DNA from: Candidatus Atelocyanobacterium thalassa isolate ALOHA
Lineage (GTDB): Bacteria; Cyanobacteriota; Cyanobacteriia; Cyanobacteriales; Microcystaceae
Length of the DNA: 32,000 nucleotides
Assembly (NCBI RefSeq): GCF_000025125.1
Contig: NC_013771.1
Span: 900,001-932,000 of the forward strand
Direction of reading: 5' to 3'
The notes under the pieces are model-generated. The model was not told the origin of the DNA, did not search any database, and saw only the letters and a list, made by a program, of their open reading frames with translations. Numbering within the stretch: the first letter of the stretch is position 1; each line of letters starts with the position of its first letter. Position numbers and translations under genes: made by a program. Below are positions 3,396-32,000 of the stretch, piece by piece.

Positions 3396-3875
3396 CTATT
3401 TCACAGAAAGTTCTTGTAATTTTTCTAAAACAATTTCACCGTGGTTTTTAACTTTTACATTAAACCAAATGAAACTAATACTCTTGCTTAAATTAATTAA
3501 AAAAGTAGAACGAACAATGCCCATATATTCCCTTCCCATAAATTTTTTCAATTTCCAAACATCATACTTCTTTGCGACTTCATGATTGTGATCAGATAAT
3601 AACTCTATAGTTAGATCATGTTTGTTAATAAATTTAATATGTGACTTTTCAGAATCTGGGCTAATGCCAATAATTTTAGCCCCAAAAGATTCAAATTGAG
3701 GCATTAGTTCTGTAAACTCTTTAGCTTCTTTTGTACAACCAGATGTATTGTCTTTAGGATAAAAATATACAATTAACCATTTATTGGATATGCTCCCTAA
3801 ACAAAATTCTTTACCATCTTGGTTGTTAATTTTAAAATCAGGAGCAGGATCTCCAATGCTTAATAAATTTTCCAT
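3396..3875 (-). CDS. bcp: Thioredoxin-dependent peroxiredoxin, BCP/PrxQ type
   Basis: 159-aa ORF. The peroxidatic Cys sits in YFYPKDNTSGCTKEAKEF. The AhpC/TSA fold length is typical. There is no second Cys five residues downstream, so it is the 1-Cys-like PrxQ variant. Confidence 0.88.
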   Translation of the reverse strand: MENLLSIGDPAPDFKINNQDGKEFCLGSISNKWLIVYFYPKDNTSGCTKEAKEFTELMPQFESFGAKIIGISPDSEKSHIKFINKHDLTIELLSDHNHEVAKKYDVWKLKKFMGREYMGIVRSTFLINLSKSISFIWFNVKVKNHGEIVLEKLQELSVK

Positions 3876-7310: not shown

Positions 7311-9032
7311 GTGTCTGCCTTACCTACAAAAGCTAGTTCTATACATATAAAGTTATCTACGAAAAGAAAAAAATACCATTGGAATAGTAATAATTATTCT
7401 AGTAACCGCCGTCGTTTAGATATTTGGTTATTTTTCTTATCTTTCATGTTTAAACTGTGGCTTAATAAGAAAAAAATTAGCTATAGAGGAGGATGGACCC
7501 AAGAAAAATTAATTAAGAGAAAAAAAATATTAGCAATTTGGATACGAGAAAAATTACTAGATCTAGGTCCAACTTTTATTAAAATCGGACAGCTTTTTTC
7601 AACGCGTGCTGATCTCTTTTCTTCTGAATATGTAGAAGAATTATCAAAGCTCCAAGATGAAGTTCCTGCTTTTGACTATGATGAAGTAAAAAAAATTATT
7701 GAAAATGATCTAGGAAAGCCTTTATCTCAGATCTTTTATTACTTTGATGCTCTTCCTATAGCAGCTGCAAGCCTTGGACAAGTTCATAAAGCCATATTAT
7801 ATTCAGGAGAAGAAGTTGTTGTTAAAGTACAACGTCCTGGTCTTACAAAGTTATTTACTATTGATTTAGCAATCCTTAAAAAAATTACCTATTATTTTCA
7901 AAATCATCCTAGCTGGGGTCGAGGAAGAGATTGGATTGGTATTTATAATGAATGTTATAAAATTCTTTGGCTAGAAACAGAATATCTTAAGGAAGGAAGA
8001 AATGCAGACACTTTTCGACGTAACTTTCGTAATAGAAATTGGGTAAAAGTACCACGAGTTTATTGGAGATACACTGCTTCTCGTGTTTTAACATTAGAGT
8101 ATCTTCCTGGAATCAAAATTAATAACTATAAAGAATTAGAAGCTTTAAGGTTGGAGCGCAAAATATTAGCTAGATTAAATGCAGAAGCTTATTTATATCA
8201 GATACTTAAGGATGGATTTTTTCATGCCGATCCTCATCCTGGAAATATTGCAATTAGTAAAGACGGAGCCTTAATCTTCTATGATTTTGGAATGATGGGG
8301 ACTATTGAGCCTGATCTTAATAAAAAATTAATGAATACGTTTATTGCTATCACTCAAAAAAATAGTGACAAAATAATCTTTTCTTTAATTGAATTAAATA
8401 TATTAGACCCCAAAGTTGATATTGGTCCAATTCGCCGCTCTATACAGTTCATGCTAGATAATTTCATGAATAAATCTATGCAAGAACAATCTATCAGTGC
8501 TATAGGTGACGACTTGTATGAAATTGCTTATAACCAATCTTTAAGATTTCCTGCTACATTTACTTTTGTTATCCGAGCTTTTTCCATGTTAGAAGGTGTT
8601 GGGAAAGGATTAGACCCTGACTTTGACTTTATGGAAATTGCCAAGCCCTTTATTTTAGATTTGATAAATTCTTCTAGTCAAAACACTAATAATCACTTAC
8701 TAAATCAATTTTCTAGCCAAATGATAGAACTTGGTAACGAGACTTTAGGTTTACCAAATCATATTAATACTACACTTAAAAAGTTAGATCAAGGTGATAT
8801 AAAATTAGAAGTTCGTTCAGCTGAATCAAATAGAATTTTGCGTCAACTTAAGATGATACAAATTGCAACTATTTTTGGAATTTTTACTAGTTCATTATTA
8901 ATTTGCACGACTCTCTTGTTTATTAATAATTATTTTAATCTAGCCTTGGCAACTATACTAATAGCATTGATACCACTATGGGTGGTGATTAGGATTGTAT
9001 ATAGAACTAAACGCTTTGACAAGCATTTTTAA
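7311..9032 (+). CDS. ABC1/UbiB (AarF-domain) atypical protein kinase with a C-terminal membrane anchor
   Basis: 573-aa ORF with a GTG start. ABC1 signatures are present: LGPTFIKIGQLFSTRADLF, AAASLGQVHKA, VVVKVQRPG, HADPHPGNI and IFYDFGMMG. There are two hydrophobic helices at the C-terminus. Confidence 0.92.
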   Translation: MSALPTKASSIHIKLSTKRKKYHWNSNNYSSNRRRLDIWLFFLSFMFKLWLNKKKISYRGGWTQEKLIKRKKILAIWIREKLLDLGPTFIKIGQLFSTRADLFSSEYVEELSKLQDEVPAFDYDEVKKIIENDLGKPLSQIFYYFDALPIAAASLGQVHKAILYSGEEVVVKVQRPGLTKLFTIDLAILKKITYYFQNHPSWGRGRDWIGIYNECYKILWLETEYLKEGRNADTFRRNFRNRNWVKVPRVYWRYTASRVLTLEYLPGIKINNYKELEALRLERKILARLNAEAYLYQILKDGFFHADPHPGNIAISKDGALIFYDFGMMGTIEPDLNKKLMNTFIAITQKNSDKIIFSLIELNILDPKVDIGPIRRSIQFMLDNFMNKSMQEQSISAIGDDLYEIAYNQSLRFPATFTFVIRAFSMLEGVGKGLDPDFDFMEIAKPFILDLINSSSQNTNNHLLNQFSSQMIELGNETLGLPNHINTTLKKLDQGDIKLEVRSAESNRILRQLKMIQIATIFGIFTSSLLICTTLLFINNYFNLALATILIALIPLWVVIRIVYRTKRFDKHF

Positions 9033-18283: not shown

Positions 18284-20518
18284 ATGAAATGGGATCGACG
18301 AACTTTTTTACAGACCTTACTCACCTGGGGAATTGCTCAGGGAAGTATTATATGGCCAAGCTACAATAGTAGACTTTATAAGTACCACAAGGTACTGGCA
18401 GAACCCACAGATCGTAAGTTAGCTTTATTAATAGGTATTAATACTTATACTAAAAATCTTGGATTAAAAGGTTGTTTAACTGATATTGAAAGGCAAAAAG
18501 ATTTGTTGATTAATCGCTTTGGCTTTCATCCAAAAAACATTCTTATCCTATCTAATGAACAAGCAACCCGCCAAGGTATTAAAAATGCTTTCCTAGAACA
18601 TCTAGTAAATCAAGCTAAGCCAGGTGATGTTGCTTTAGTTCATTTTAGTGGCTATGGTGCACAAGTTAAAATTCCTTCAAATTCCCCTAATACGATACCT
18701 GGTGTTGCCAACTATCCAATTTTAGCTCAAGGAATTATTCCTAGTGAAGATAATCAATCAAATAAAAATATAACTATCACAAATAATATTCTTGAAGAAA
18801 CATTATTTTTACTAGGAAAACTGATAGATACAGAAAAACTAACTATGGTTTTTGATACTAGTTACTGTAGTACTGGAGAGATTAATCAAGGAAGTTTAAG
18901 AGTACGTTCTCTGCCATATAAGTTTCCGGAAGCCAATATAGATGAGTTAGTTTGGCAAGCAGAATTAAAAAATAAAATTCAAAATAGTAAAATTTCAGCT
19001 AATTATGGAACTATTTTGTCTGCTGCTAGGAAGGGGCAAATTGCTACAGAAATTAAAGGGGGAAATTTTAGCGTAGGACTTTTTACGTACGCATTGACTC
19101 AATATTTGTGGTCAGTTACCCCCGCTAGTCGGATTAATATAGTTTTAAATAAAGCTACAGAGGAAATTCTTCCAATTATGGGAGAAAATCAGCAGCCAGA
19201 ACAACAAAGTAATATTAAGCAATCTCTATTTGCATATTATCTTTTGCCAACCAACCTTCAAGGAGCAGAGGTTCTGGTTAGTTCCGCTGAAGATCTTGAT
19301 AATATTCAAGTTATTTTTACTGGATTCTCAGTAAACATCTTGAGGCATTATGGATTAAATTCTATTTTTCATAATATTTCTTCCACTTCATCGTCTTTTT
19401 TTCAACTACATTCTCGTGATGGTTTGAAAGGAAAAGTACGGCAGATCTTTAAAGGAACAACAAGTCGTCAAACTGACTTAACAGGTAAATTCCTACAGGA
19501 ATCAGTTCGTTGCTTACCAAAAATAATAGGATTAACTGTTGCCCTTGATCCAAAGTTACAAAGAATTGAAAGAGTAGATGCCACTAGTGCTTTTTCTGCA
19601 ATTGACACAGTTGCAGGCATAGCCAGTGATGAGGAGCCAGTTGATTGTATTTTAGGATTACTGGCTTCATTTACTTCTTCATCTTCTAATCTAACTACTT
19701 TAAATTCATCAGAAAAGTCAAAGTATGGACTTTTCTTACCAGGTGGTGTTCAGATACCTAATACTTCAGGAAAGACTGGAGAAGCTATAAAATCTTCTGT
19801 TGAAAGGCTACGTCCAAATTTAGAAAATCTTCTAGCAGTTAAGCTACTAAGATTGACTGTTAATGAAAACTCTTCAAAGTTACTTTTTTCTATTAATCTC
19901 GAGGGACTTAATCCTGATCCTTATCCAATAGATAGACGAGAAACCAATAGAAATAAAACGTTTACTTCTCAAATAGACAAAATTGAGAACAATTCTCATG
20001 AGGTATATAATCTCCAAGGGCTGCCTAAAATTGCTAGAGGTACTCGTTTACGTTGTTGTATACAAAACCAAGGCAATAAGACTCTTGACTTTATAATTAT
20101 CGGAATTAGTAGTAATGGTAAAGTAACCGCTTATATTCCTGCCCATGAAAAAGAAATAGAATGCGATACTCAAGATGCAAGTTTTTTAGAACCTGGAATG
20201 AAAAATATTATTCCTTCTAGTTCTAGCGGTCTAACCTGGACAACTTCTAGTACTAGAGGATGGGAACAAATTTTATCAATTTCTTCAATATATCCTTTCT
20301 ATAATACTTGGCAAGCTTTAAAAAAAATACCAGAATTTAAAAGCCAAAAAGATCAAATGATTATTCTTGATGATCCACTAAGCATAGCCAAAGCACTTTT
20401 AGAGGATTTGAATACAGCTAGCTTGAAAATAAATAAGATGATCACGTCAAATTCTGATACCTATAATCTTGATGTCCAAGTCTGGTCTACTTTAAGTTTT
20501 ACTTATCAAATTATTTAA
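18284..20518 (+). CDS. Caspase-fold (peptidase C14, orthocaspase-like) protein with a substituted catalytic dyad, a twin-arginine signal and a long C-terminal extension (DUF4384-like region near the end)
   Basis: 744-aa ORF. It has an N-terminal Tat-like motif (MKWDRRTFLQTLL) and p20-like region (RKLALLIGINTYTKNLGLKGCLTDIERQKDLLINRFGF...ATRQGIKNAF). Tyr occupies the catalytic His site in VHFSGYG (TAT 18653-18655). In FDTSYCSTG, Ser appears to occupy the catalytic Cys position (AGT 18860-18862). Confidence 0.8.
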   Translation: MKWDRRTFLQTLLTWGIAQGSIIWPSYNSRLYKYHKVLAEPTDRKLALLIGINTYTKNLGLKGCLTDIERQKDLLINRFGFHPKNILILSNEQATRQGIKNAFLEHLVNQAKPGDVALVHFSGYGAQVKIPSNSPNTIPGVANYPILAQGIIPSEDNQSNKNITITNNILEETLFLLGKLIDTEKLTMVFDTSYCSTGEINQGSLRVRSLPYKFPEANIDELVWQAELKNKIQNSKISANYGTILSAARKGQIATEIKGGNFSVGLFTYALTQYLWSVTPASRINIVLNKATEEILPIMGENQQPEQQSNIKQSLFAYYLLPTNLQGAEVLVSSAEDLDNIQVIFTGFSVNILRHYGLNSIFHNISSTSSSFFQLHSRDGLKGKVRQIFKGTTSRQTDLTGKFLQESVRCLPKIIGLTVALDPKLQRIERVDATSAFSAIDTVAGIASDEEPVDCILGLLASFTSSSSNLTTLNSSEKSKYGLFLPGGVQIPNTSGKTGEAIKSSVERLRPNLENLLAVKLLRLTVNENSSKLLFSINLEGLNPDPYPIDRRETNRNKTFTSQIDKIENNSHEVYNLQGLPKIARGTRLRCCIQNQGNKTLDFIIIGISSNGKVTAYIPAHEKEIECDTQDASFLEPGMKNIIPSSSSGLTWTTSSTRGWEQILSISSIYPFYNTWQALKKIPEFKSQKDQMIILDDPLSIAKALLEDLNTASLKINKMITSNSDTYNLDVQVWSTLSFTYQII

Positions 20519-28685: not shown

Positions 28686-28957
28686 TATCTCTCCTTACAA
28701 ACCACACAACTAGAACAAAATTAATAGATTACAGATTTATAGCCACTACATAAAAAGCTAATTTGTTGGTTATAAAGCAGACCACGCTTAATAATAACTA
28801 TATTTGATTTAAAGGTAAAGGCATTACATTTATCAAAGAGTGATGAAAGAACAATACCATAACTTTTGAATACTAAAATATTTATTTTTAATCATTTGTT
28901 AATTTAAATGATTTATATATTTAGTTGATTCTATTATTCTGTCTGGAAAAACTTAAA

Positions 28958-29713
28958 TTAATTCATTACCATTCCACCATCTATGTTGATTACTTGTCCT
29001 GTGATATAAGCTGCAGAGGGATCAACTGCCAAAAATCTTGTAAGCCCTGCTACTTCTTCTGGAGTTCCCAACCTTTTTAAAGGAATAGATTGTAAAACGT
29101 TTTCTTTTTCTAGATCTTTCGTCATATTAGTTTTAATAAAACCAGGAGCAATCGCATTAACTGTTATGCCACGGCTAGCTACTTCTTTCGCAACTGATTT
29201 GGTAAAGCCTAATATACCTGCCTTTGCTGCACTATAATTGGCTTGTCCAGGATTACCTACTTCACCTACTATGGAAGAAACATTAATAATACGTCCGTTT
29301 TTTTGTTTAAGCATAGTTTTTATAACAGCTTGAGTACAAAGAAAAACTCCTGTGAGATTTAAATCAATAACTGTTTGCCAGTCATCAAGCTTCATTCTTA
29401 ACAGTAATTTATCACGTGTGATCCCTGCATTGTTGACTAGAATATCAATTCTTCCAAATTTATTTAATGTATTATCAATTAATTTTTTTACATCTTCTAA
29501 GTTAGCAATATTAGCTTGAACAGCAATAGCTTCTCCTCCATTCCGTATTATATCTTTTACTACCTCTTCTGCTGCTGCTTTAGAATTAGCATAGTTAACA
29601 ACGACTTTTAAGCCTAAGCTAGCTAACTCTATCGCAATTGCACGGCCAATACCTTGAGAGGAACCGGTAACTATAGCAACTTTTGAATCCAACGACGAAA
29701 TTGACGTTAACAT
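28958..29713 (-). CDS. fabG: 3-oxoacyl-[acyl-carrier-protein] reductase
   Basis: 251-aa SDR ORF with the cofactor motif (VTGSSQGIGRAIA), NNAGI and the catalytic SSIVGEVGNPGQANYSAAKAG (S...YxxxK). The C-terminus ITGQVINIDGGMVM is typical of FabG. Confidence 0.92.
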   Translation of the reverse strand: MLTSISSLDSKVAIVTGSSQGIGRAIAIELASLGLKVVVNYANSKAAAEEVVKDIIRNGGEAIAVQANIANLEDVKKLIDNTLNKFGRIDILVNNAGITRDKLLLRMKLDDWQTVIDLNLTGVFLCTQAVIKTMLKQKNGRIINVSSIVGEVGNPGQANYSAAKAGILGFTKSVAKEVASRGITVNAIAPGFIKTNMTKDLEKENVLQSIPLKRLGTPEEVAGLTRFLAVDPSAAYITGQVINIDGGMVMN

Positions 29714-29810
29714 TTTTTATAGGACCTTATTATCTTGACTACTTAAATTTTAGCTGTATAAATTAAGATAATATAAGAATTTTATAGATTTTTTGTTAAA
29801 TTACCATCAT

Positions 29811-32000
29811 ATGGATACTGGTCAAATTACATGGCAATCTCCATCTCTTGTAGATTTACCTCCCTCATTTACTAATATACTCAGCTCTTTCAACATTTCT
29901 CCTCAAGAAAATTTCATATCTCAAATTCTATGGAATAGGAATATTAGAACTGTTGATCAACTTAAGATTTTTTTGGATTGTGATTCTTATGAATCTCTAA
30001 GTATATTTGAAGGTTGGAGTGAGGTGATACCTTCTGTTTATAGATTAAAAGCAGCAGTTCAAAATAAAGAGAAGGTTATTATCTGCGGGAAAGAAGGTCT
30101 TAACAGCATCATAAGTACAAGTTTATTGTGGGAAGGGCTGGGAAATTTTTTGATACCTTACACTCAGCTTAATTATTATATTCCTAGCTATAGCACTAGA
30201 TGCCATGGTTTTAATACTGCATCGATAAAACAATTCGCTATTGAAGAAGTAAATTTAATTATTACTTGTGGCATAAAAGATTTTAGTCTGCAAGATCTTA
30301 GTCTTGCCAAATCTTTTGGTATTGATATTATTGCAATAGGCAGAAACATTAACCCCGTTAATTTAAAGGATCTTATATATACTATTGATTCTTATTCTTT
30401 ATCTGTAGATCATCCTTTCTTTGATCTTTCAGAAACTTCATTAGCATATAAATTAATTGAATCTCTTCACACCGAAATTCCTAAGACACCAAGCGATAAT
30501 TTAGATAATTTACTAGACTTAGTAGCCATTAATTCAATTTCTACTTTATTGAAATTAAATATAGAGTTGAGATATTTAACTAAAAAAGGTATTCAAAATT
30601 TACAAAAGCAACTAAAAAATCCTAGTAGGCCTGGAATAGCTTATTTACTCTATCTGTGTAAACTATCTGGAAACCGCCCAACTGATATTTGTTTTGGGAT
30701 TGGTTCTAGGATTAATTCTGTTTGTTGTGTCAATAAAAGTTCTAGTTTTCTGATAGAGTTACTGACTAACAAAGATAAAGATTATTCTGAAAAACTTGCT
30801 CTTGAAGCTGAATTAGCTAACATTCGATGTAATAACCTACAGCAATATATTATTAGAAATATTAGGCAAACTTTAAAAGCTATTGATTTATCTATAACTC
30901 AGGTTATTGTTCTAGAAAATCCTGAATGGGAGAGTGAAATATTGAAATTAATTGTTCAAGAAGTTTCATGTGAATATAATAAGCCAACAATTTTATTGAC
31001 AACCGTGGAATGTAAAGAAAATGAACAACAAAATTTAAATTTTTCCAAAGGATATGCATATTCTTCTAATAATATCAGTTCCTATGAATTGATATCTTCT
31101 CAACATGATCTACTGTATTCATTTTATGGAGAAGAATACTCAGATTTAGTTGATTTAAGTTTAAGTAATGAAAATATTCCTTTATTTAGAGAAAGAGCCA
31201 ATCAATACTTACGACAAAAATATGTTGAAATTGATACCTCAAAGTCTATAGTTGAGACTGATTTGACAGTTACAGTTTCTCAACTCGGACAATCTTTATT
31301 TCGAGAATTAAAAATTTTAGAGCCTTACGGTATAGGTAACCTGGTTCCTAAATTACTTATTAAAAATTGTTATCTTAAAATTTCTAAAAATAATAACGGC
31401 AAAACTTTTAAAAATCATAATTTAAAATATGTAAAAACTGAGTTTACTCTTTATGACTCTTCTACTAAAAAAGGATTTCCTGGAGTTTGGTGGGGGCACT
31501 CTAAGGGGGAACTACAGAATAAAGAGGATATAAAATATGATGTTATCGTCGAGCTAGGTTATAGCAACTTACAACCTGGAAATTATGAAGTGCGCTTAAT
31601 CGAAATTCAAGAAATTTCACATCATCTTGACTCCAAAAAGACAAGAATCAATTTATTAGATTATAGAAATGATAAAATTACTTTTAACAATATAAACAAT
31701 GGATCTTTTGAGCTTTTTAAGTTCTGTCCTGTTGATTGGTCAGAATTATTAAATATATATGAAAAAAGCTGTAAGAATTTTCAAGATCTAGCTTTATCGT
31801 ACTCATTCAACGTTGATTCAAGTTCTATCGATACAATTCAAAAAGCTATTGACATTGCTAATTTTTTATCTTCTAATAATCAAAAAATTACAAGGAAAAA
31901 ATTGCGAAAAGTCTTATCTCTAAGTGATTTTAGCTTAGATTTAATGTTAGATTTTTTAGGGAAATTTGGATTTTTAATTAATAAAGATAATAAAAAATTA
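29811..32000 (+). CDS. recJ: RecJ-like protein (DHH/DHHA1 fold) with substituted catalytic motifs. It is 3'-partial and continues beyond the window end.
   Basis: Not in the ORF track because it runs off the edge. I translated it by hand from ATG 29811, and 730 codons are open to position 32000. RecJ scaffold segments are conserved: IISTSLL, YIPSYS..HGF, NLIIT, SFGIDIIA, LLDLVA, RPGIAYLL, GSRIN and LEPYGIGNLVPKLLI (compare RecJ P(F/Y)G.GNP.P). At the catalytic positions it reads CGKEGLN, GRN and YGEE instead of GD.DADG, DHH and GGH. Confidence 0.8.
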   Translation, partial: MDTGQITWQSPSLVDLPPSFTNILSSFNISPQENFISQILWNRNIRTVDQLKIFLDCDSYESLSIFEGWSEVIPSVYRLKAAVQNKEKVIICGKEGLNSIISTSLLWEGLGNFLIPYTQLNYYIPSYSTRCHGFNTASIKQFAIEEVNLIITCGIKDFSLQDLSLAKSFGIDIIAIGRNINPVNLKDLIYTIDSYSLSVDHPFFDLSETSLAYKLIESLHTEIPKTPSDNLDNLLDLVAINSISTLLKLNIELRYLTKKGIQNLQKQLKNPSRPGIAYLLYLCKLSGNRPTDICFGIGSRINSVCCVNKSSSFLIELLTNKDKDYSEKLALEAELANIRCNNLQQYIIRNIRQTLKAIDLSITQVIVLENPEWESEILKLIVQEVSCEYNKPTILLTTVECKENEQQNLNFSKGYAYSSNNISSYELISSQHDLLYSFYGEEYSDLVDLSLSNENIPLFRERANQYLRQKYVEIDTSKSIVETDLTVTVSQLGQSLFRELKILEPYGIGNLVPKLLIKNCYLKISKNNNGKTFKNHNLKYVKTEFTLYDSSTKKGFPGVWWGHSKGELQNKEDIKYDVIVELGYSNLQPGNYEVRLIEIQEISHHLDSKKTRINLLDYRNDKITFNNINNGSFELFKFCPVDWSELLNIYEKSCKNFQDLALSYSFNVDSSSIDTIQKAIDIANFLSSNNQKITRKKLRKVLSLSDFSLDLMLDFLGKFGFLINKDNKKL

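What the first reader, a model, noticed from the sequence alone, without database searches (positions are those of the whole stretch)
29811..32000. RecJ-like gene stays open for at least 730 codons although every catalytic DHH/DHHA1 motif residue appears substituted
I aligned this ORF by eye to E. coli RecJ from memory.

The scaffold lines up well, but the metal-binding and catalytic positions do not.
- Motif I, G-D-F-D-A-D-G, reads G-K-E-G-L-N-S (aa 93-99, nt 30087-30107).
- Motif II, TVDNGI, reads TCGIKD.
- The family-defining T-D-H-H reads I-G-R-N (aa 176-179; GRN is at nt 30339-30347).
- GT(V/I)ADvvPL reads NSISTLLKL.
- GPRLNAAGR reads GSRINSVCC.
- The DHHA1 FGGHxMAAG reads FYGEEYSDL.

Flanking non-catalytic segments are retained: STSLL, LIIT, GIDIIA, LLDLVA and LEPYGIGN-VPK.

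In DNA this AT-rich, roughly one random codon in 12 should be a stop (assuming about 30% G+C). A 2.19-kb open frame is therefore not a recently dead pseudogene. It looks like a selected, non-catalytic RecJ derivative (a pseudo-nuclease), or a RecJ paralogue with another role such as scaffold or ssDNA/SSB binding.

In a genome-reduced symbiont this bears on how recombination and repair are maintained, given that uvrB in the same window is fully intact.
Basis: partly seen in the sequence, partly recalled or inferred. Interest (0 to 1): 0.7.

Follow-up and report, generated by a model that had tools for sequence, protein, structure and literature searches.

The report
Conserved catalytically dead RecJ in UCYN-A
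The nitrogen-fixing marine symbiont/organelle UCYN-A keeps, transcribes and conserves a full-length copy of the DNA-repair nuclease RecJ in which every residue needed to cut DNA has been replaced, so this copy has most likely become a non-cutting (structural or binding) protein, although genome surveys still count it as a working RecJ.

Summary
Window 29811-32000 (+) holds the first 730 of 780 codons of UCYN_08160 from Candidatus Atelocyanobacterium thalassa (UCYN-A1). It is the orthologue of the long cyanobacterial RecJ paralogue (recJcy, sll1354 type).

- **Catalytic residues:** at 11 catalytic/signature positions, 112 of 112 other orthologues are canonical and 0 of 3 UCYN-A sublineages (A1, A2, A4) are. 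The metal ligands, DHH, the 5'-phosphate pocket, the gateway arginine and GGH are all replaced, mostly by the same residues in all three.
- **Not a pseudogene:** it is 780-781 codons in all three sublineages. dN/dS is 0.17-0.18, against 0.13-0.14 for intact Crocosphaera orthologues and 0.04-0.30 for neighbouring genes. The former motif segments are tighter still (0.11-0.13).
- **Transcription:** published microarray tables list it among detected transcripts.
- **Internal control:** an adjacent ahpC shows real decay, intact in A2, fragmented in A4 and deleted in A1.
- **Fold:** the predicted fold is full-length RecJ.
- **Second RecJ:** the literature reports another RecJ, UCYN_05290. I could not retrieve its sequence.
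- **Other lineages:** degenerate full-length recJcy also occurs independently in Geminocystis (dN/dS 0.22-0.31) and other cyanobacteria.

The best reading is a selected pseudo-nuclease, comparable to Cdc45 or Haloferax RecJ4.

The parts
29811..32000 (+). CDS of the RecJ-like protein UCYN_08160 (WP_012954194.1-type): codons 1-730 of 780. The stop codon lies 150 nt beyond the window end.
   Evidence: Open frame. Full-length 780-aa protein P0001 and locus L004. Identified through the cluster names and the murC/fabG/methyltransferase synteny.
29714..29810 (.). 97-bp AT-rich intergenic region shared with the divergently transcribed fabG (28958-29713, -); presumed promoter region. A TTG 18 nt upstream of the ATG is an alternative in-frame start.
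   Evidence: Sequence. ORF list. The promoter consensus scan was not above the shuffle expectation, so no specific promoter is claimed.
30084..30113 (+). Former motif I (aa 92-101, CGKEGLNSII). The equivalents of metal ligands D79/D81/D83 of DrRecJ are K94/G96/N98, and base-stacking Y80 is E95.
30264..30287 (+). Former motif II (aa 152-159, TCGIKDFS). The bridging metal ligand Asp (D135 of DrRecJ) is G154.
   Evidence: (8y30 alignment).
30330..30353 (+). Former motif III, DHH (aa 174-181, IAIGRNIN). D158/H159/H160 equivalents are G177/R178/N179, identical in all three UCYN-A sublineages.
30525..30557 (+). Former motif IV (aa 239-249, AINSISTLLKL). Metal ligand D223 equivalent is T245.
30696..30737 (+). 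Former motif V (aa 296-309, GIGSRINSVCCVNK). R300 and N302 are kept. The phosphate-pocket/gateway Arg (R280 of DrRecJ) is C306, and S305 is also Cys.
30777..30875 (+). Long linker helix between the DHH and DHHA1 domains (aa 323-355). It contains R340C and K341N (gateway R313/R314 equivalents). It is the most constrained segment, with dN/dS 0.01-0.04.
   Evidence: AF2 helix 323-355. dN/dS. Residue roles.
31044..31067 (+). Former motif VI (aa 412-419, SKGYAYSS). The 5'-phosphate pocket residues S371/R373 equivalents are Y415/Y417. The same Tyr/Phe replacements occur in other degenerate lineages.
31110..31160 (+). Former motif VII of DHHA1 (aa 434-450, LLYSFYGEEYSDLVDLS). The GGH is Y439-G440-E441 (H397 equivalent to E). 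There is a 2-residue insertion relative to intact orthologues.
31227..31616 (+). OB-fold domain (aa 473-602). Pfam RecJ_OB passes its gathering score. Only one highly conserved column in this domain is lost.
31617..32000 (+). C-terminal domain typical of the long RecJcy type (aa 603-780; the window holds aa 603-730). It shows the least acceleration relative to Crocosphaera, and its dN/dS is unchanged compared with intact orthologues.

Best explanation
The gene is UCYN_08160 of Ca. Atelocyanobacterium thalassa (UCYN-A1). It is the orthologue of the long cyanobacterial RecJ paralogue (recJcy, the sll1354 type, about 780 aa: DHH, linker helix, DHHA1, OB fold and a C-terminal domain).

**Shown here**
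- In the common ancestor of sublineages A1, A2 and A4 it lost all six two-metal ligands, the DHH general base, the 5'-phosphate-binding pocket, a gateway arginine and the DHHA1 GGH histidine. It cannot carry out the known RecJ 5'-3' exonuclease chemistry.
- Since then it has been kept as a full-length ORF under purifying selection almost as strong as that on the active orthologue of free-living relatives.
- The former active-site segments and the inter-domain helix are the most constrained parts.

**From the literature:** it is transcribed, and a second RecJ (recJec, UCYN_05290) exists in the genome.

**Inferred**
- It works as a pseudo-nuclease: a non-catalytic RecJ-fold protein that acts by binding. 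The binding surfaces would be its retained OB fold, its C-terminal domain and a remodelled, conserved cleft.
- Its partners are most likely in DNA metabolism: SSB, ssDNA in a non-canonical mode, or another nuclease such as the second RecJ.
- The recJec paralogue supplies the actual exonuclease activity.

The precedents are Cdc45 in the eukaryotic CMG helicase and the non-catalytic RecJ4, which scaffolds active RecJ3 in Haloferax.
For: **Loss of chemistry**
- At 11 catalytic/signature positions, 112/112 other orthologues are canonical and 0/3 UCYN-A proteins are.
- At 16 positions with experimentally defined roles in DrRecJ (PMC4846377), UCYN-A has 15-16 replaced, including 8/8 metal-ligand and DHH positions.
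- TIGR00644 scores below its cutoff and there is no DHHA1 Pfam hit.

**Selection**
- dN/dS is 0.17-0.18 in all three pairwise comparisons, with bootstrap limits 0.13-0.23 and dS 0.84-0.89.
- The 13 flanking genes range from 0.04 to 0.30. Intact Crocosphaera recJcy gives 0.13-0.14.
- The former motif segments give 0.11-0.13 and the linker helix 0.01-0.04.
- 51 of the 74 conserved columns lost in all three sublineages carry the same replacement residue in all three.
- A neutral simulation gives 25-39 premature stops, and 0 of 2000 replicates stay open.

**Internal control:** the neighbouring ahpC is intact in A2, fragmented in A4 and deleted in A1.

**Fold:** AF2 mean pLDDT is 85.7. Foldseek's top hits are S. 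aureus, D. radiodurans and T. thermophilus RecJ, with E = 4e-41 and TM 0.63-0.65 for the best.

**Transcription:** UCYN_08160 is in the table of detected transcripts (only 365 of 1,194 A1 genes were detected). Its signal is like that of recA. It is also in the table of genes whose transcript levels differ between light and dark (PMC6315102).

**Second RecJ:**

**Acceleration is targeted**
- UCYN-A has 4-6 times more lineage-specific substitutions than Crocosphaera. The DHH domain shows 93 against 9, the C-terminal domain 23 against 12.
- The Rhopalodia/Epithemia endosymbionts show no acceleration.

**Generality:** the Geminocystis clade independently lost 10 of the 16 positions yet keeps a full-length gene with dN/dS 0.22-0.31.

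**Precedents:**
Against: - No biochemical or protein-level evidence exists. Transcription is known only from microarrays.
- The partner and the binding function are purely inferred. The canonical ssDNA 5'-end pocket and the gateway arginine are also gone, so even DNA binding is uncertain.
- The strong conservation of the remodelled cleft fits a new ligand site or a rewired catalytic site as well as it fits a scaffold.
- I could not retrieve the sequence of the second RecJ. That it is catalytically intact rests on published identity values and annotation, not on motifs I inspected.
- The AF2 model was driven by an alignment made mostly of intact orthologues, so 'fold retained' is partly inherited from them.
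- dN/dS used the simple Nei-Gojobori method on three sequences.
- sll1354 can be deleted in Synechocystis, so the family has no known essential non-catalytic role.
Confidence: 0.6

Rival explanations
1. Rewired enzyme. The protein still catalyses a reaction, either hydrolysis of another phosphoester or something different. It would use a new set of residues in the remodelled cleft: new acidic residues E95, D157, E208, E376, E441/E442 and D448, or the new cysteines C92, C131, C305, C306 and C340. It would then be a neo-enzyme rather than a pseudo-enzyme.
For: The former active-site segments are the most constrained part of the protein (dN/dS 0.11-0.13), which a purely passive scaffold does not require. 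Five cysteines that are absent from 112/112 other orthologues are fixed at positions that flank or replace active-site residues. Many replacements introduce charged residues. The pseudoenzyme literature notes cases where catalytic residues have migrated (abstract of PMC10211241).
Against: All six metal ligands, the general base, the general acid and all four phosphate-pocket residues are gone at once, and no known DHH-family chemistry survives that. The Cys replacements are all reachable by single AT-enriching mutations, so mutation bias may have created them. I could not obtain model coordinates to test whether the new residues cluster.
Confidence: 0.12
2. Non-catalytic protein recruited to a role unrelated to DNA repair. 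Only the stable RecJ fold would be reused, for example as a binding module in the symbiont/organelle context.
For: UCYN-A lacks RecQ and RecBCD, and A2 lacks RecO and XerD, so the classical RecJ pathway context is eroded. The DNA 5'-end recognition residues are lost. The gene's neighbourhood in UCYN-A (fabG, murC, methyltransferases) gives no repair context.
Against: The OB fold and the C-terminal domain are the best-preserved regions, and in RecJ these contact DNA and SSB (PMC4846377). The independent Geminocystis degenerate copy sits in a conserved FHA / recJcy-like / HhH-GPD glycosylase arrangement, which is still a repair context. The known dead RecJ homologues (Cdc45, RecJ4) all stayed in DNA/RNA metabolism.
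Confidence: 0.2
3. Slowly eroding pseudogene that happens still to be open, or an ORF kept open for reasons other than its protein, such as an embedded regulatory element or polar effects.
For: Complete loss of catalytic motifs is what relaxed selection produces. Amino-acid divergence between A1 and A2 is 27%, against a genome average of 14%. PGAP no longer names it RecJ.
Against: It is full length (780/781/781 codons) with almost no indels in three sublineages separated by dS of about 0.85. dN/dS is 0.17-0.18. Simulated neutral evolution gives 25-39 stops and never an open frame. A real pseudogene next door (ahpC) is already fragmented or deleted. The opposite strand has no long ORF. Constraint acts on amino-acid replacements across all domains.
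Confidence: 0.03

Closest known systems
Cyanobacterial long RecJ paralogue 'recJcy' (Synechocystis sll1354 type; Crocosphaera/Cyanothece orthologues such as P0020)
   Same: Orthologous. The best hits are Crocosphaera proteins at 43-46% identity over 100% of the length. The length is the same (780 against 781 aa). The domain order is the same, including the family-specific C-terminal domain. 138 of 239 highly conserved family columns are kept.
   Different: All catalytic and 5'-phosphate-pocket residues are replaced. It scores below the TIGR00644 cutoff. It has evolved 4-6 times faster since the split from Crocosphaera. The canonical member behaves as an exonuclease in vivo: deleting sll1354 raises transformation about 100-fold (PMC3766872).
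Bacterial RecJ 5'-3' ssDNA exonuclease (TIGR00644; solved: S. aureus 8y30, D. radiodurans 5f54-5f56, T. thermophilus 2zxo)
   Same: Predicted four-domain architecture and fold (Foldseek E = 4e-41, TM 0.63-0.65). Sequence homology E = 2e-23.
   Different: None of the residues shown by mutagenesis to be required for DrRecJ activity is present: D79, D81, D83, D135, D158, H159, H160, D223, R109, R280, S371, R373, H397.
Eukaryotic Cdc45 and archaeal inactivated RecJ homologues (arCOG00428, arCOG00432, Sulfolobus RecJdbh)
   Same: RecJ-fold proteins that lost metal-binding residues and the 5'-phosphate pocket but are retained as structural subunits of DNA-replication machinery (PMC4846377 discussion, PMC3307487). 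They appear as weaker Foldseek hits.
   Different: These are a different, archaeo-eukaryotic branch of the family that works with MCM and GINS, which bacteria lack. Here the loss is recent, lineage-specific and inside a bacterial RecJ orthologous group, and no partner is known.
Haloferax volcanii RecJ4
   Same: A RecJ paralogue without active-site residues that coexists with an active paralogue (RecJ3) and is needed as a scaffold for a nuclease complex (PMC10470531). This matches the UCYN-A situation of one dead and one presumably live RecJ.
   Different: It is archaeal (arCOG00429), with S1/OB domains and a long disordered region. Complex formation there is shown experimentally; here it is only a hypothesis.
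Degenerate recJcy of the Geminocystis clade ('DHH family phosphoesterase', e.g. WP_066120768.1) and of scattered other cyanobacteria (e.g. Lyngbya confervoides WP_166276848.1)
   Same: The same orthologous family, full length, and with loss of GGH, the phosphate pocket and the gateway Arg. They show the same Ser-to-Tyr/Phe and Arg-to-Tyr/Phe replacements in motif VI. They are under purifying selection, with dN/dS 0.22-0.31.
   Different: These are independent events: 24-35% identity to UCYN-A, while UCYN-A is 43-45% identical to intact Crocosphaera. Geminocystis keeps DHH, the motif II Asp and part of motif I (10 of 16 positions changed, against 15-16 of 16). These are free-living organisms.

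Membership tests
RecJ exonuclease (NCBIfam TIGR00644 equivalog) | Whole-protein score at or above the curated cutoff (396.9 bits) | tested here: not met
   258.8 bits, aligned over model positions 3-542 of 546. PGAP accordingly names it 'DHH family phosphoesterase'.
RecJ exonuclease (NCBIfam TIGR00644 equivalog) | Motif I DxDxDG and motif II Asp: ligands of the two catalytic metal ions | tested here: not met
   K94/G96/N98 and G154. 112/112 other orthologues have Asp at these positions. Roles are from PMC4846377.
RecJ exonuclease (NCBIfam TIGR00644 equivalog) | Motif III DHH (metal ligand and general base) and motif IV Asp | tested here: not met
   G177-R178-N179 and T245, in all three UCYN-A sublineages.
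RecJ exonuclease (NCBIfam TIGR00644 equivalog) | 5'-phosphate-binding pocket (R109, R280, S371, R373 of DrRecJ) and DHHA1 GGH (H397) | tested here: not met
   Y127, C306, Y415, Y417 (F in A2 and A4), and Y439-G440-E441. There is no Pfam DHHA1 hit.
RecJ exonuclease (NCBIfam TIGR00644 equivalog) | Domain architecture DHH - linker helix - DHHA1 - OB fold | tested here: met
   AF2 mean pLDDT 85.7. Foldseek top hits are full-length bacterial RecJ structures. Pfam RecJ_OB passes its cutoff. Caveat: the model used an alignment dominated by intact orthologues.
RecJ exonuclease (NCBIfam TIGR00644 equivalog) | Mn2+/Mg2+-dependent 5'-3' ssDNA exonuclease activity | not testable with these tools
   Needs recombinant protein. 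Predicted absent from the residue pattern.
Cyanobacterial recJcy orthologous group (sll1354 type) | Closest relatives are recJcy proteins, collinear over the full length including the family-specific C-terminal domain | tested here: met
   Top non-UCYN-A hits are Crocosphaera recJcy at 45-46% identity and 100% coverage, 780-781 aa. Conserved C-terminal columns such as E755, F758 and F763 are kept.
Cyanobacterial recJcy orthologous group (sll1354 type) | Conserved gene neighbourhood with relatives | tested here: not met
   Synteny is conserved among UCYN-A1, A2 and A4. It is not conserved with Crocosphaera subtropica, where the gene lies between an ECF sigma factor gene and a YkuD gene. This is weak evidence because these genomes are heavily rearranged.
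Pseudoenzyme / non-catalytic RecJ homologue (Cdc45, RecJ4 kind) | Catalytic residues absent while the fold is kept | tested here: met
Pseudoenzyme / non-catalytic RecJ homologue (Cdc45, RecJ4 kind) | Maintained by purifying selection after the loss of catalysis | tested here: met
   dN/dS 0.17-0.18 among three sublineages that all share the loss. 51 of 74 replacements are identical in all three. Neutral simulation never keeps the frame open.
Pseudoenzyme / non-catalytic RecJ homologue (Cdc45, RecJ4 kind) | Expressed | tested here: inconclusive
   Transcript detected in natural populations according to the supplementary tables of PMC6315102. No protein-level data found.
Pseudoenzyme / non-catalytic RecJ homologue (Cdc45, RecJ4 kind) | Defined binding partner or structural role | not testable with these tools
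   Needs pull-down or co-purification with SSB, UCYN_05290, RecFOR and similar proteins.

The most novel reading that the evidence does not exclude
The long cyanobacterial RecJ (recJcy) has a second, nuclease-independent function carried by its scaffold: the OB fold, the C-terminal domain and the inter-domain cleft. That function, not DNA degradation, would be what selection preserves. This would explain why catalysis has been lost repeatedly (UCYN-A, the Geminocystis clade, scattered others) while the full-length protein persists, even in a 1.4-Mb organelle-like genome. It would also explain why independent lineages converge on the same aromatic replacements in the former 5'-phosphate pocket (Ser to Tyr/Phe, Arg to Tyr/Phe). 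UCYN-A would then be a natural separation-of-function mutant, a bacterial counterpart of the RecJ-to-Cdc45 transition. Its remodelled cleft, with five new conserved cysteines, might form a new ligand-binding or metal-binding site.
Probability: 0.3. Interest if true: 0.75.

Novelty: new variant of a known kind. Interest (0 to 1): 0.6.

Why it matters
**DNA-repair inventories.** UCYN-A is a globally important marine nitrogen fixer and is now treated as an early-stage organelle (nitroplast). Inventories of its DNA-repair capacity count this gene as a working RecJ (Supplementary Table 1 of PMC5101192; supplementary table of PMC12903740, which lists ucynA-08160 as the 'Core' recJ). If it cannot cut DNA, those inventories overstate the repair capacity, and any RecJ activity rests on the other paralogue.

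**A bacterial example.** Catalytically dead RecJ-fold proteins with structural roles are known from eukaryotes (Cdc45) and archaea. I found no bacterial example in the library I could search.

**Retention in a shrinking genome.** A 2.3-kb dead-enzyme gene held under purifying selection in a genome that is visibly deleting its neighbours (ahpC, a TPR gene) argues for a real non-catalytic function.

**Testable hypothesis.** The independent Geminocystis case suggests the function belongs to the recJcy family in general. That can be tested in Synechocystis or Synechococcus by comparing a catalytic-dead point mutant of recJcy with a deletion.

Tried and rejected
1. **Sequence of the second RecJ (UCYN_05290 / ucyna2_00982).** I wanted to inspect its motifs but had no cyanobacterial recJec sequence to use as a query. 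The paralogue's status therefore rests on the literature.
2. **One search is invalid.** A column offset caused by hmmalign --trim made even the control P0020 read as non-canonical. It was redone correctly and cross-checked with an independent L-INS-i alignment.
3. **Cysteine clustering.** I wanted to test whether the five new cysteines cluster in space, but model coordinates are not exposed to scripts.
4. **Synteny with Crocosphaera** as support for orthology: not conserved.
5. **Promoter/terminator scan:** 22 promoter-like sites against 18.8 expected and one internal terminator-like site, so uninformative.
6. **Stem-branch dN/dS against Crocosphaera:** dS is saturated at 1.3-1.7, so the apparent 0.27-0.35 shows only that omega was elevated on that path. 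It cannot separate relaxation from positive selection.
7. **Literature searches** for an earlier report of the missing catalytic residues in UCYN-A, and for protein-level evidence, found nothing. The library is incomplete; for example, the Science 2024 nitroplast proteome is not held.
8. **Pseudogene reading:** rejected on dN/dS, conserved length, neutral simulation and the ahpC contrast.


Full report
**What is in the window**

Positions 29811-32000 (+) are open for all 730 codons. The other five frames of the same stretch contain 38-108 stops. At the local composition (28.7% G+C) one random codon in 11.9 is a stop, so the open frame is not chance (P = 2e-28).

The same protein occurs in public assemblies as a 780-aa product (P0001). 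Locus L004 differs from the window at 2 of 2190 nt and shows the stop 150 nt beyond the window end.

Cluster membership names the organism: Candidatus Atelocyanobacterium thalassa, UCYN-A1 (ADB95507.1 / WP_012954194.1, called 'DHH family phosphoesterase' by PGAP). The synteny murC - fabG - this gene - methyltransferase identifies it as UCYN_08160.

TIGR00644 (recJ) aligns over nearly its whole length (model positions 3-542 of 546) but scores 258.8 bits against a cutoff of 396.9. Pfam DHH is below threshold, DHHA1 is not detected, and RecJ_OB passes.

- GDFDADG reads GKEGLNS.
- TCDTGS reads TCGIKD.
- TDHH reads IGRN.
- GLIADL reads NSISTL.
- GPRINAISR reads GSRINSVCC.
- FGGHPFAAG reads FYGEEYSDL.

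In a 115-sequence alignment, 112 of 112 other orthologues carry the canonical residue at each of 11 catalytic/signature positions. None of the three UCYN-A proteins does.

I then used the experimentally defined residue roles of D. radiodurans RecJ (PMC4846377). The losses cover:
- all six ligands of the two metal ions (D79, D81, D83, D135, H159, D223 become K94, G96, N98, G154, R178, T245);
- the general base H160 (N179) and its partner D158 (G177);
- the probable general acid H397 (E441);
- the whole 5'-phosphate pocket (R109, R280, S371, R373 become Y127, C306, Y415, Y417);
- the gateway arginine R313 (C340).

Alanine substitutions of the metal ligands, or of D158 or H160, (almost) completely inactivate DrRecJ. 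Known RecJ chemistry is therefore excluded.

**It is not a pseudogene**

Two further sublineages carry the same gene at 73% amino-acid identity. One is UCYN-A2, the Braarudosphaera bigelowii endosymbiont/nitroplast type (P0003 cluster). The other is UCYN-A4, named by the record title (P0002).

All three genes are 780-781 codons, collinear and in conserved synteny. All three share the motif losses. Of the 74 highly conserved family columns lost in all three, 51 carry the identical replacement in all three. The inactivation therefore predates their divergence and the new residues have been conserved since.

Selection measurements:
- Nei-Gojobori dN/dS is 0.17-0.18 for all three pairs (dS 0.84-0.89; bootstrap limits 0.13-0.23).
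- This lies within the range of 13 flanking genes (0.04-0.30).
- It is only about 1.3 times the value for the catalytically intact orthologue among three free-living Crocosphaera species (0.13-0.14).
- Every domain is constrained. The former motif segments (0.11-0.13) and the DHH-DHHA1 linker helix (0.01-0.04) are tighter than the gene average.
- Simulated neutral substitution at 0.2-0.4 per site produces 25-39 premature stops and never leaves the frame open.

The same neighbourhood holds a positive control for real decay. A peroxiredoxin (ahpC) between murC and fabG is intact in the A2-type contig, broken into out-of-frame fragments in A4 and absent in A1. A TPR-like gene just downstream of the RecJ-like gene is present in A2 and A4 and gone from A1.

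**Expression**

In the supplementary tables of Munoz-Marin et al. 2019 (PMC6315102), UCYN_08160 appears in Table S5. That table lists detected transcripts only; 365 of 1,194 UCYN-A1 genes were detected. Its log2 signal is 4.6-6.3 (mean 5.7), like recA. It also appears in Table S2, which lists genes whose transcript levels differ between light and dark. I found no protein-level evidence.

**Fold**

An AlphaFold2 model built on the 115-sequence alignment has mean pLDDT 85.7 and pTM 0.73. Foldseek against the PDB returns full-length bacterial RecJ first (S. aureus 8y30, E = 4e-41, TM 0.63-0.65), followed by D. radiodurans and T. thermophilus RecJ. Archaeal RecJ/Cdc45 and eukaryotic Cdc45 come further down the list. 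The model leans on intact homologues in the alignment, so this supports a retained fold but does not prove it.

**Evolutionary pattern**

The nearest relatives are Crocosphaera recJcy proteins at 43-46% identity.

Tajima relative-rate tests show 187-231 UCYN-A-specific changes against 35-46 Crocosphaera-specific changes. That is a ratio of 4.2-6.0, with p between 1e-21 and 1e-29.

The other genome-reduced diazotrophic endosymbionts (Rhopalodia, Epithemia) show no acceleration (ratio 1.0-1.4) and keep all motifs.

The excess is concentrated in the DHH domain (93 against 9) and is least in the C-terminal domain (23 against 12). Of 239 columns that are at least 95% conserved in the family, UCYN-A keeps 138, and only three of the losses lie beyond residue 450.

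Published orthologue tables put typical UCYN-A proteins at about 67-84% identity to Cyanothece/Crocosphaera. They skip UCYN_08160 altogether.

**A second RecJ**

Cassier-Chauvat et al. 2016 (PMC5101192, Supplementary Table 1) score UCYN-A as recJec = 1, recJcy = 1, recQ = 0 and recBCD = 0.

Munoz-Marin et al. list UCYN_05290, 'exonuclease RecJ', 650 aa, aligned end to end at 66.9% and 67.6% identity to CwatDRAFT_2612 and cce_0484. Its A2 counterpart is ucyna2_00982.

I could not obtain its sequence, so its motifs are unchecked. Its ordinary level of conservation suggests an intact enzyme. The window gene is thus the paralogue that was free to lose catalysis.

The canonical recJcy is a real nuclease genetically. 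Deleting sll1354 raises Synechocystis transformation efficiency about 100-fold (PMC3766872), and a recJ deletion mutant has been constructed for transformation studies (PMC10667661).

**Not unique to UCYN-A**

I aligned the 150 closest 50%-identity representatives of Crocosphaera recJcy to an HMM of intact members. Of the 126 that cover all ten key positions, 112 are canonical. About a dozen other full-length proteins are not (independent alignment).

Two carry names: Lyngbya confervoides (still annotated RecJ) and Geminocystis sp. NIES-3709 ('DHH family phosphoesterase').

A search with the Geminocystis protein shows a whole clade: G. herdmanii, NIES-3708, NIES-3709, CENA526, GBBB08 and metagenomic relatives. 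It comprises 17 clusters at 46-60% identity, all 712-778 aa and all lacking the DHHA1 Pfam signature.

At 16 functional positions the Geminocystis clade has 10 changed. It keeps DHH but has lost GGH, the phosphate pocket and the gateway Arg. UCYN-A has 15-16 changed.

UCYN-A is 24-35% identical to all of these and 43-45% identical to intact Crocosphaera, so the events are independent.

Two Geminocystis pairs give dN/dS of 0.22 and 0.31, with upper bootstrap limits of 0.29 and 0.41. There the gene sits in a conserved FHA-domain / recJcy-like / HhH-GPD arrangement.

The former phosphate-pocket residues have changed the same way in several lineages. Ser became Tyr/Phe and Arg became Tyr/Phe in UCYN-A, Geminocystis, P0180, P0196, P0197, P0212 and P0236.

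**Interpretation**

Shown:
- the gene is real and orthologous to recJcy;
- it is incapable of known RecJ chemistry;
- it has been kept by purifying selection since before A1, A2 and A4 split.

Its transcription rests on published microarray tables.

Inferred: it acts without catalysis, as a binding or scaffolding protein. The precedents are all in the RecJ family.
- Cdc45 lost the same classes of residues (metal ligands and 5'-phosphate pocket) and serves in the CMG helicase (PMC4846377 discussion).
- Several archaeal lineages independently inactivated RecJ homologues that are thought to be structural replisome parts (PMC3307487).
- Haloferax RecJ4 lacks active-site residues and scaffolds active RecJ3 with aRNase J (PMC10470531).
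- In DrRecJ the C-terminal domain binds the SSB C-terminus and the OB fold binds downstream ssDNA. These are the best-kept parts here.

I therefore favour a DNA-metabolism scaffold, possibly working with SSB or with the second RecJ (overall confidence 0.6).

Tight constraint on the remodelled cleft, five new conserved cysteines (W92C, S131C, S305C, R306C, R340C; absent from 112/112 other orthologues) and many new charged residues keep alive a rewired-site reading (0.12). A role outside DNA metabolism is also possible (0.2). An eroding pseudogene is essentially excluded (0.03).

**Novelty**

None of the papers I could search mentions that this RecJ lacks its catalytic residues. Two comparative surveys count it as a functional RecJ.

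Non-catalytic RecJ-fold proteins are a known kind in archaea and eukaryotes. A conserved one inside a bacterial RecJ orthologous group, in an organelle-like genome, with independent parallels in free-living cyanobacteria, is a new variant of that kind.

**Limits**
- dN/dS used a simple counting method on three sequences per group.
- The stem-branch regime cannot be resolved because dS to Crocosphaera is saturated.
- The second RecJ's motifs were not inspected.
- One search contained a column-offset bug and should be ignored in favour.

Noticed in passing
window 28686-28957 (murC-fabG intergenic); L003 8331-8930; L001 about 8354-8920: A 2-Cys peroxiredoxin (AhpC-TSA) lies between murC and fabG in the UCYN-A2-type contig. 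In UCYN-A4 it is reduced to out-of-frame fragments, and in UCYN-A1 (this window) it is completely deleted. This is a three-stage series of gene decay right next to the conserved RecJ-like gene. The window keeps a different peroxiredoxin-like paralogue at 3396-3875 (-).
   Followed up: partly
L001 12434-13240 and L003 12435-13268; absent from L004 12344-12682 (just beyond the window end): A 268-277-aa TPR-like protein with an N-terminal hydrophobic segment is encoded immediately downstream of the RecJ-like gene in UCYN-A4 and UCYN-A2 (77% identical). UCYN-A1 has no trace of it; only a 340-bp AT-rich spacer remains.
   Followed up: partly
L011 5488-9302 and L012 5327-8948 (Geminocystis): In Geminocystis the degenerate recJcy-like gene is preceded, with a 3-nt gap, by a 169-aa FHA-domain gene and followed by an HhH-GPD (DNA glycosylase family) gene. 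The arrangement is conserved between two genomes. This looks like a possible operon linking the dead RecJ to phospho-dependent signalling and base-excision repair.
   Followed up: no
window 31044-31067 (aa 412-419) and the equivalent positions in P0178, P0298-P0312, P0180, P0196, P0197, P0212, P0236: The former 5'-phosphate pocket motif RGSARS has changed the same way in lineages that appear independent: Ser to Tyr/Phe and Arg to Tyr/Phe (KGYAYS, HGFAYC, FGYVYS, LGYFYC and others). Arg to Tyr needs two nucleotide changes, so this may be convergent filling or remodelling of the pocket. No formal test for convergence was done.
   Followed up: partly
window 30084, 30201, 30723-30728, 30828 (codons 92, 131, 305, 306, 340): Five cysteines are fixed in all three UCYN-A sublineages at positions where 112/112 other orthologues have W, S, S, R and R. 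All of these positions flank or replace active-site or gateway residues. Total Cys count is 13-15, against 8-9 in intact orthologues. Whether they cluster in space could not be tested.
   Followed up: partly
window 18284-20518 (+): A 744-aa protein with a caspase (Peptidase_C14) domain, UCYN_08070 in published tables, is retained in this very small genome. A pseudo-orthocaspase is described in Synechocystis (PMC7889975). I did not check whether the His-Cys dyad is intact here.
   Followed up: no
window 29793-29810 (L004 9983-10000): An in-frame TTG six codons upstream of the ATG would give a 786-aa product. The RefSeq A2 protein WP_229637187.1 is 787 aa, against 781 aa for the other models, so the annotated start differs between records.
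   Followed up: no
P0176 (Lyngbya confervoides WP_166276848.1), P0198, P0212, P0236, P0185, P0189: Further full-length recJcy-like proteins have 9-15 of 16 functional positions replaced. [quoted passage not shown] Neither their selection regime nor whether an intact copy coexists in the same genomes was examined.
   Followed up: partly
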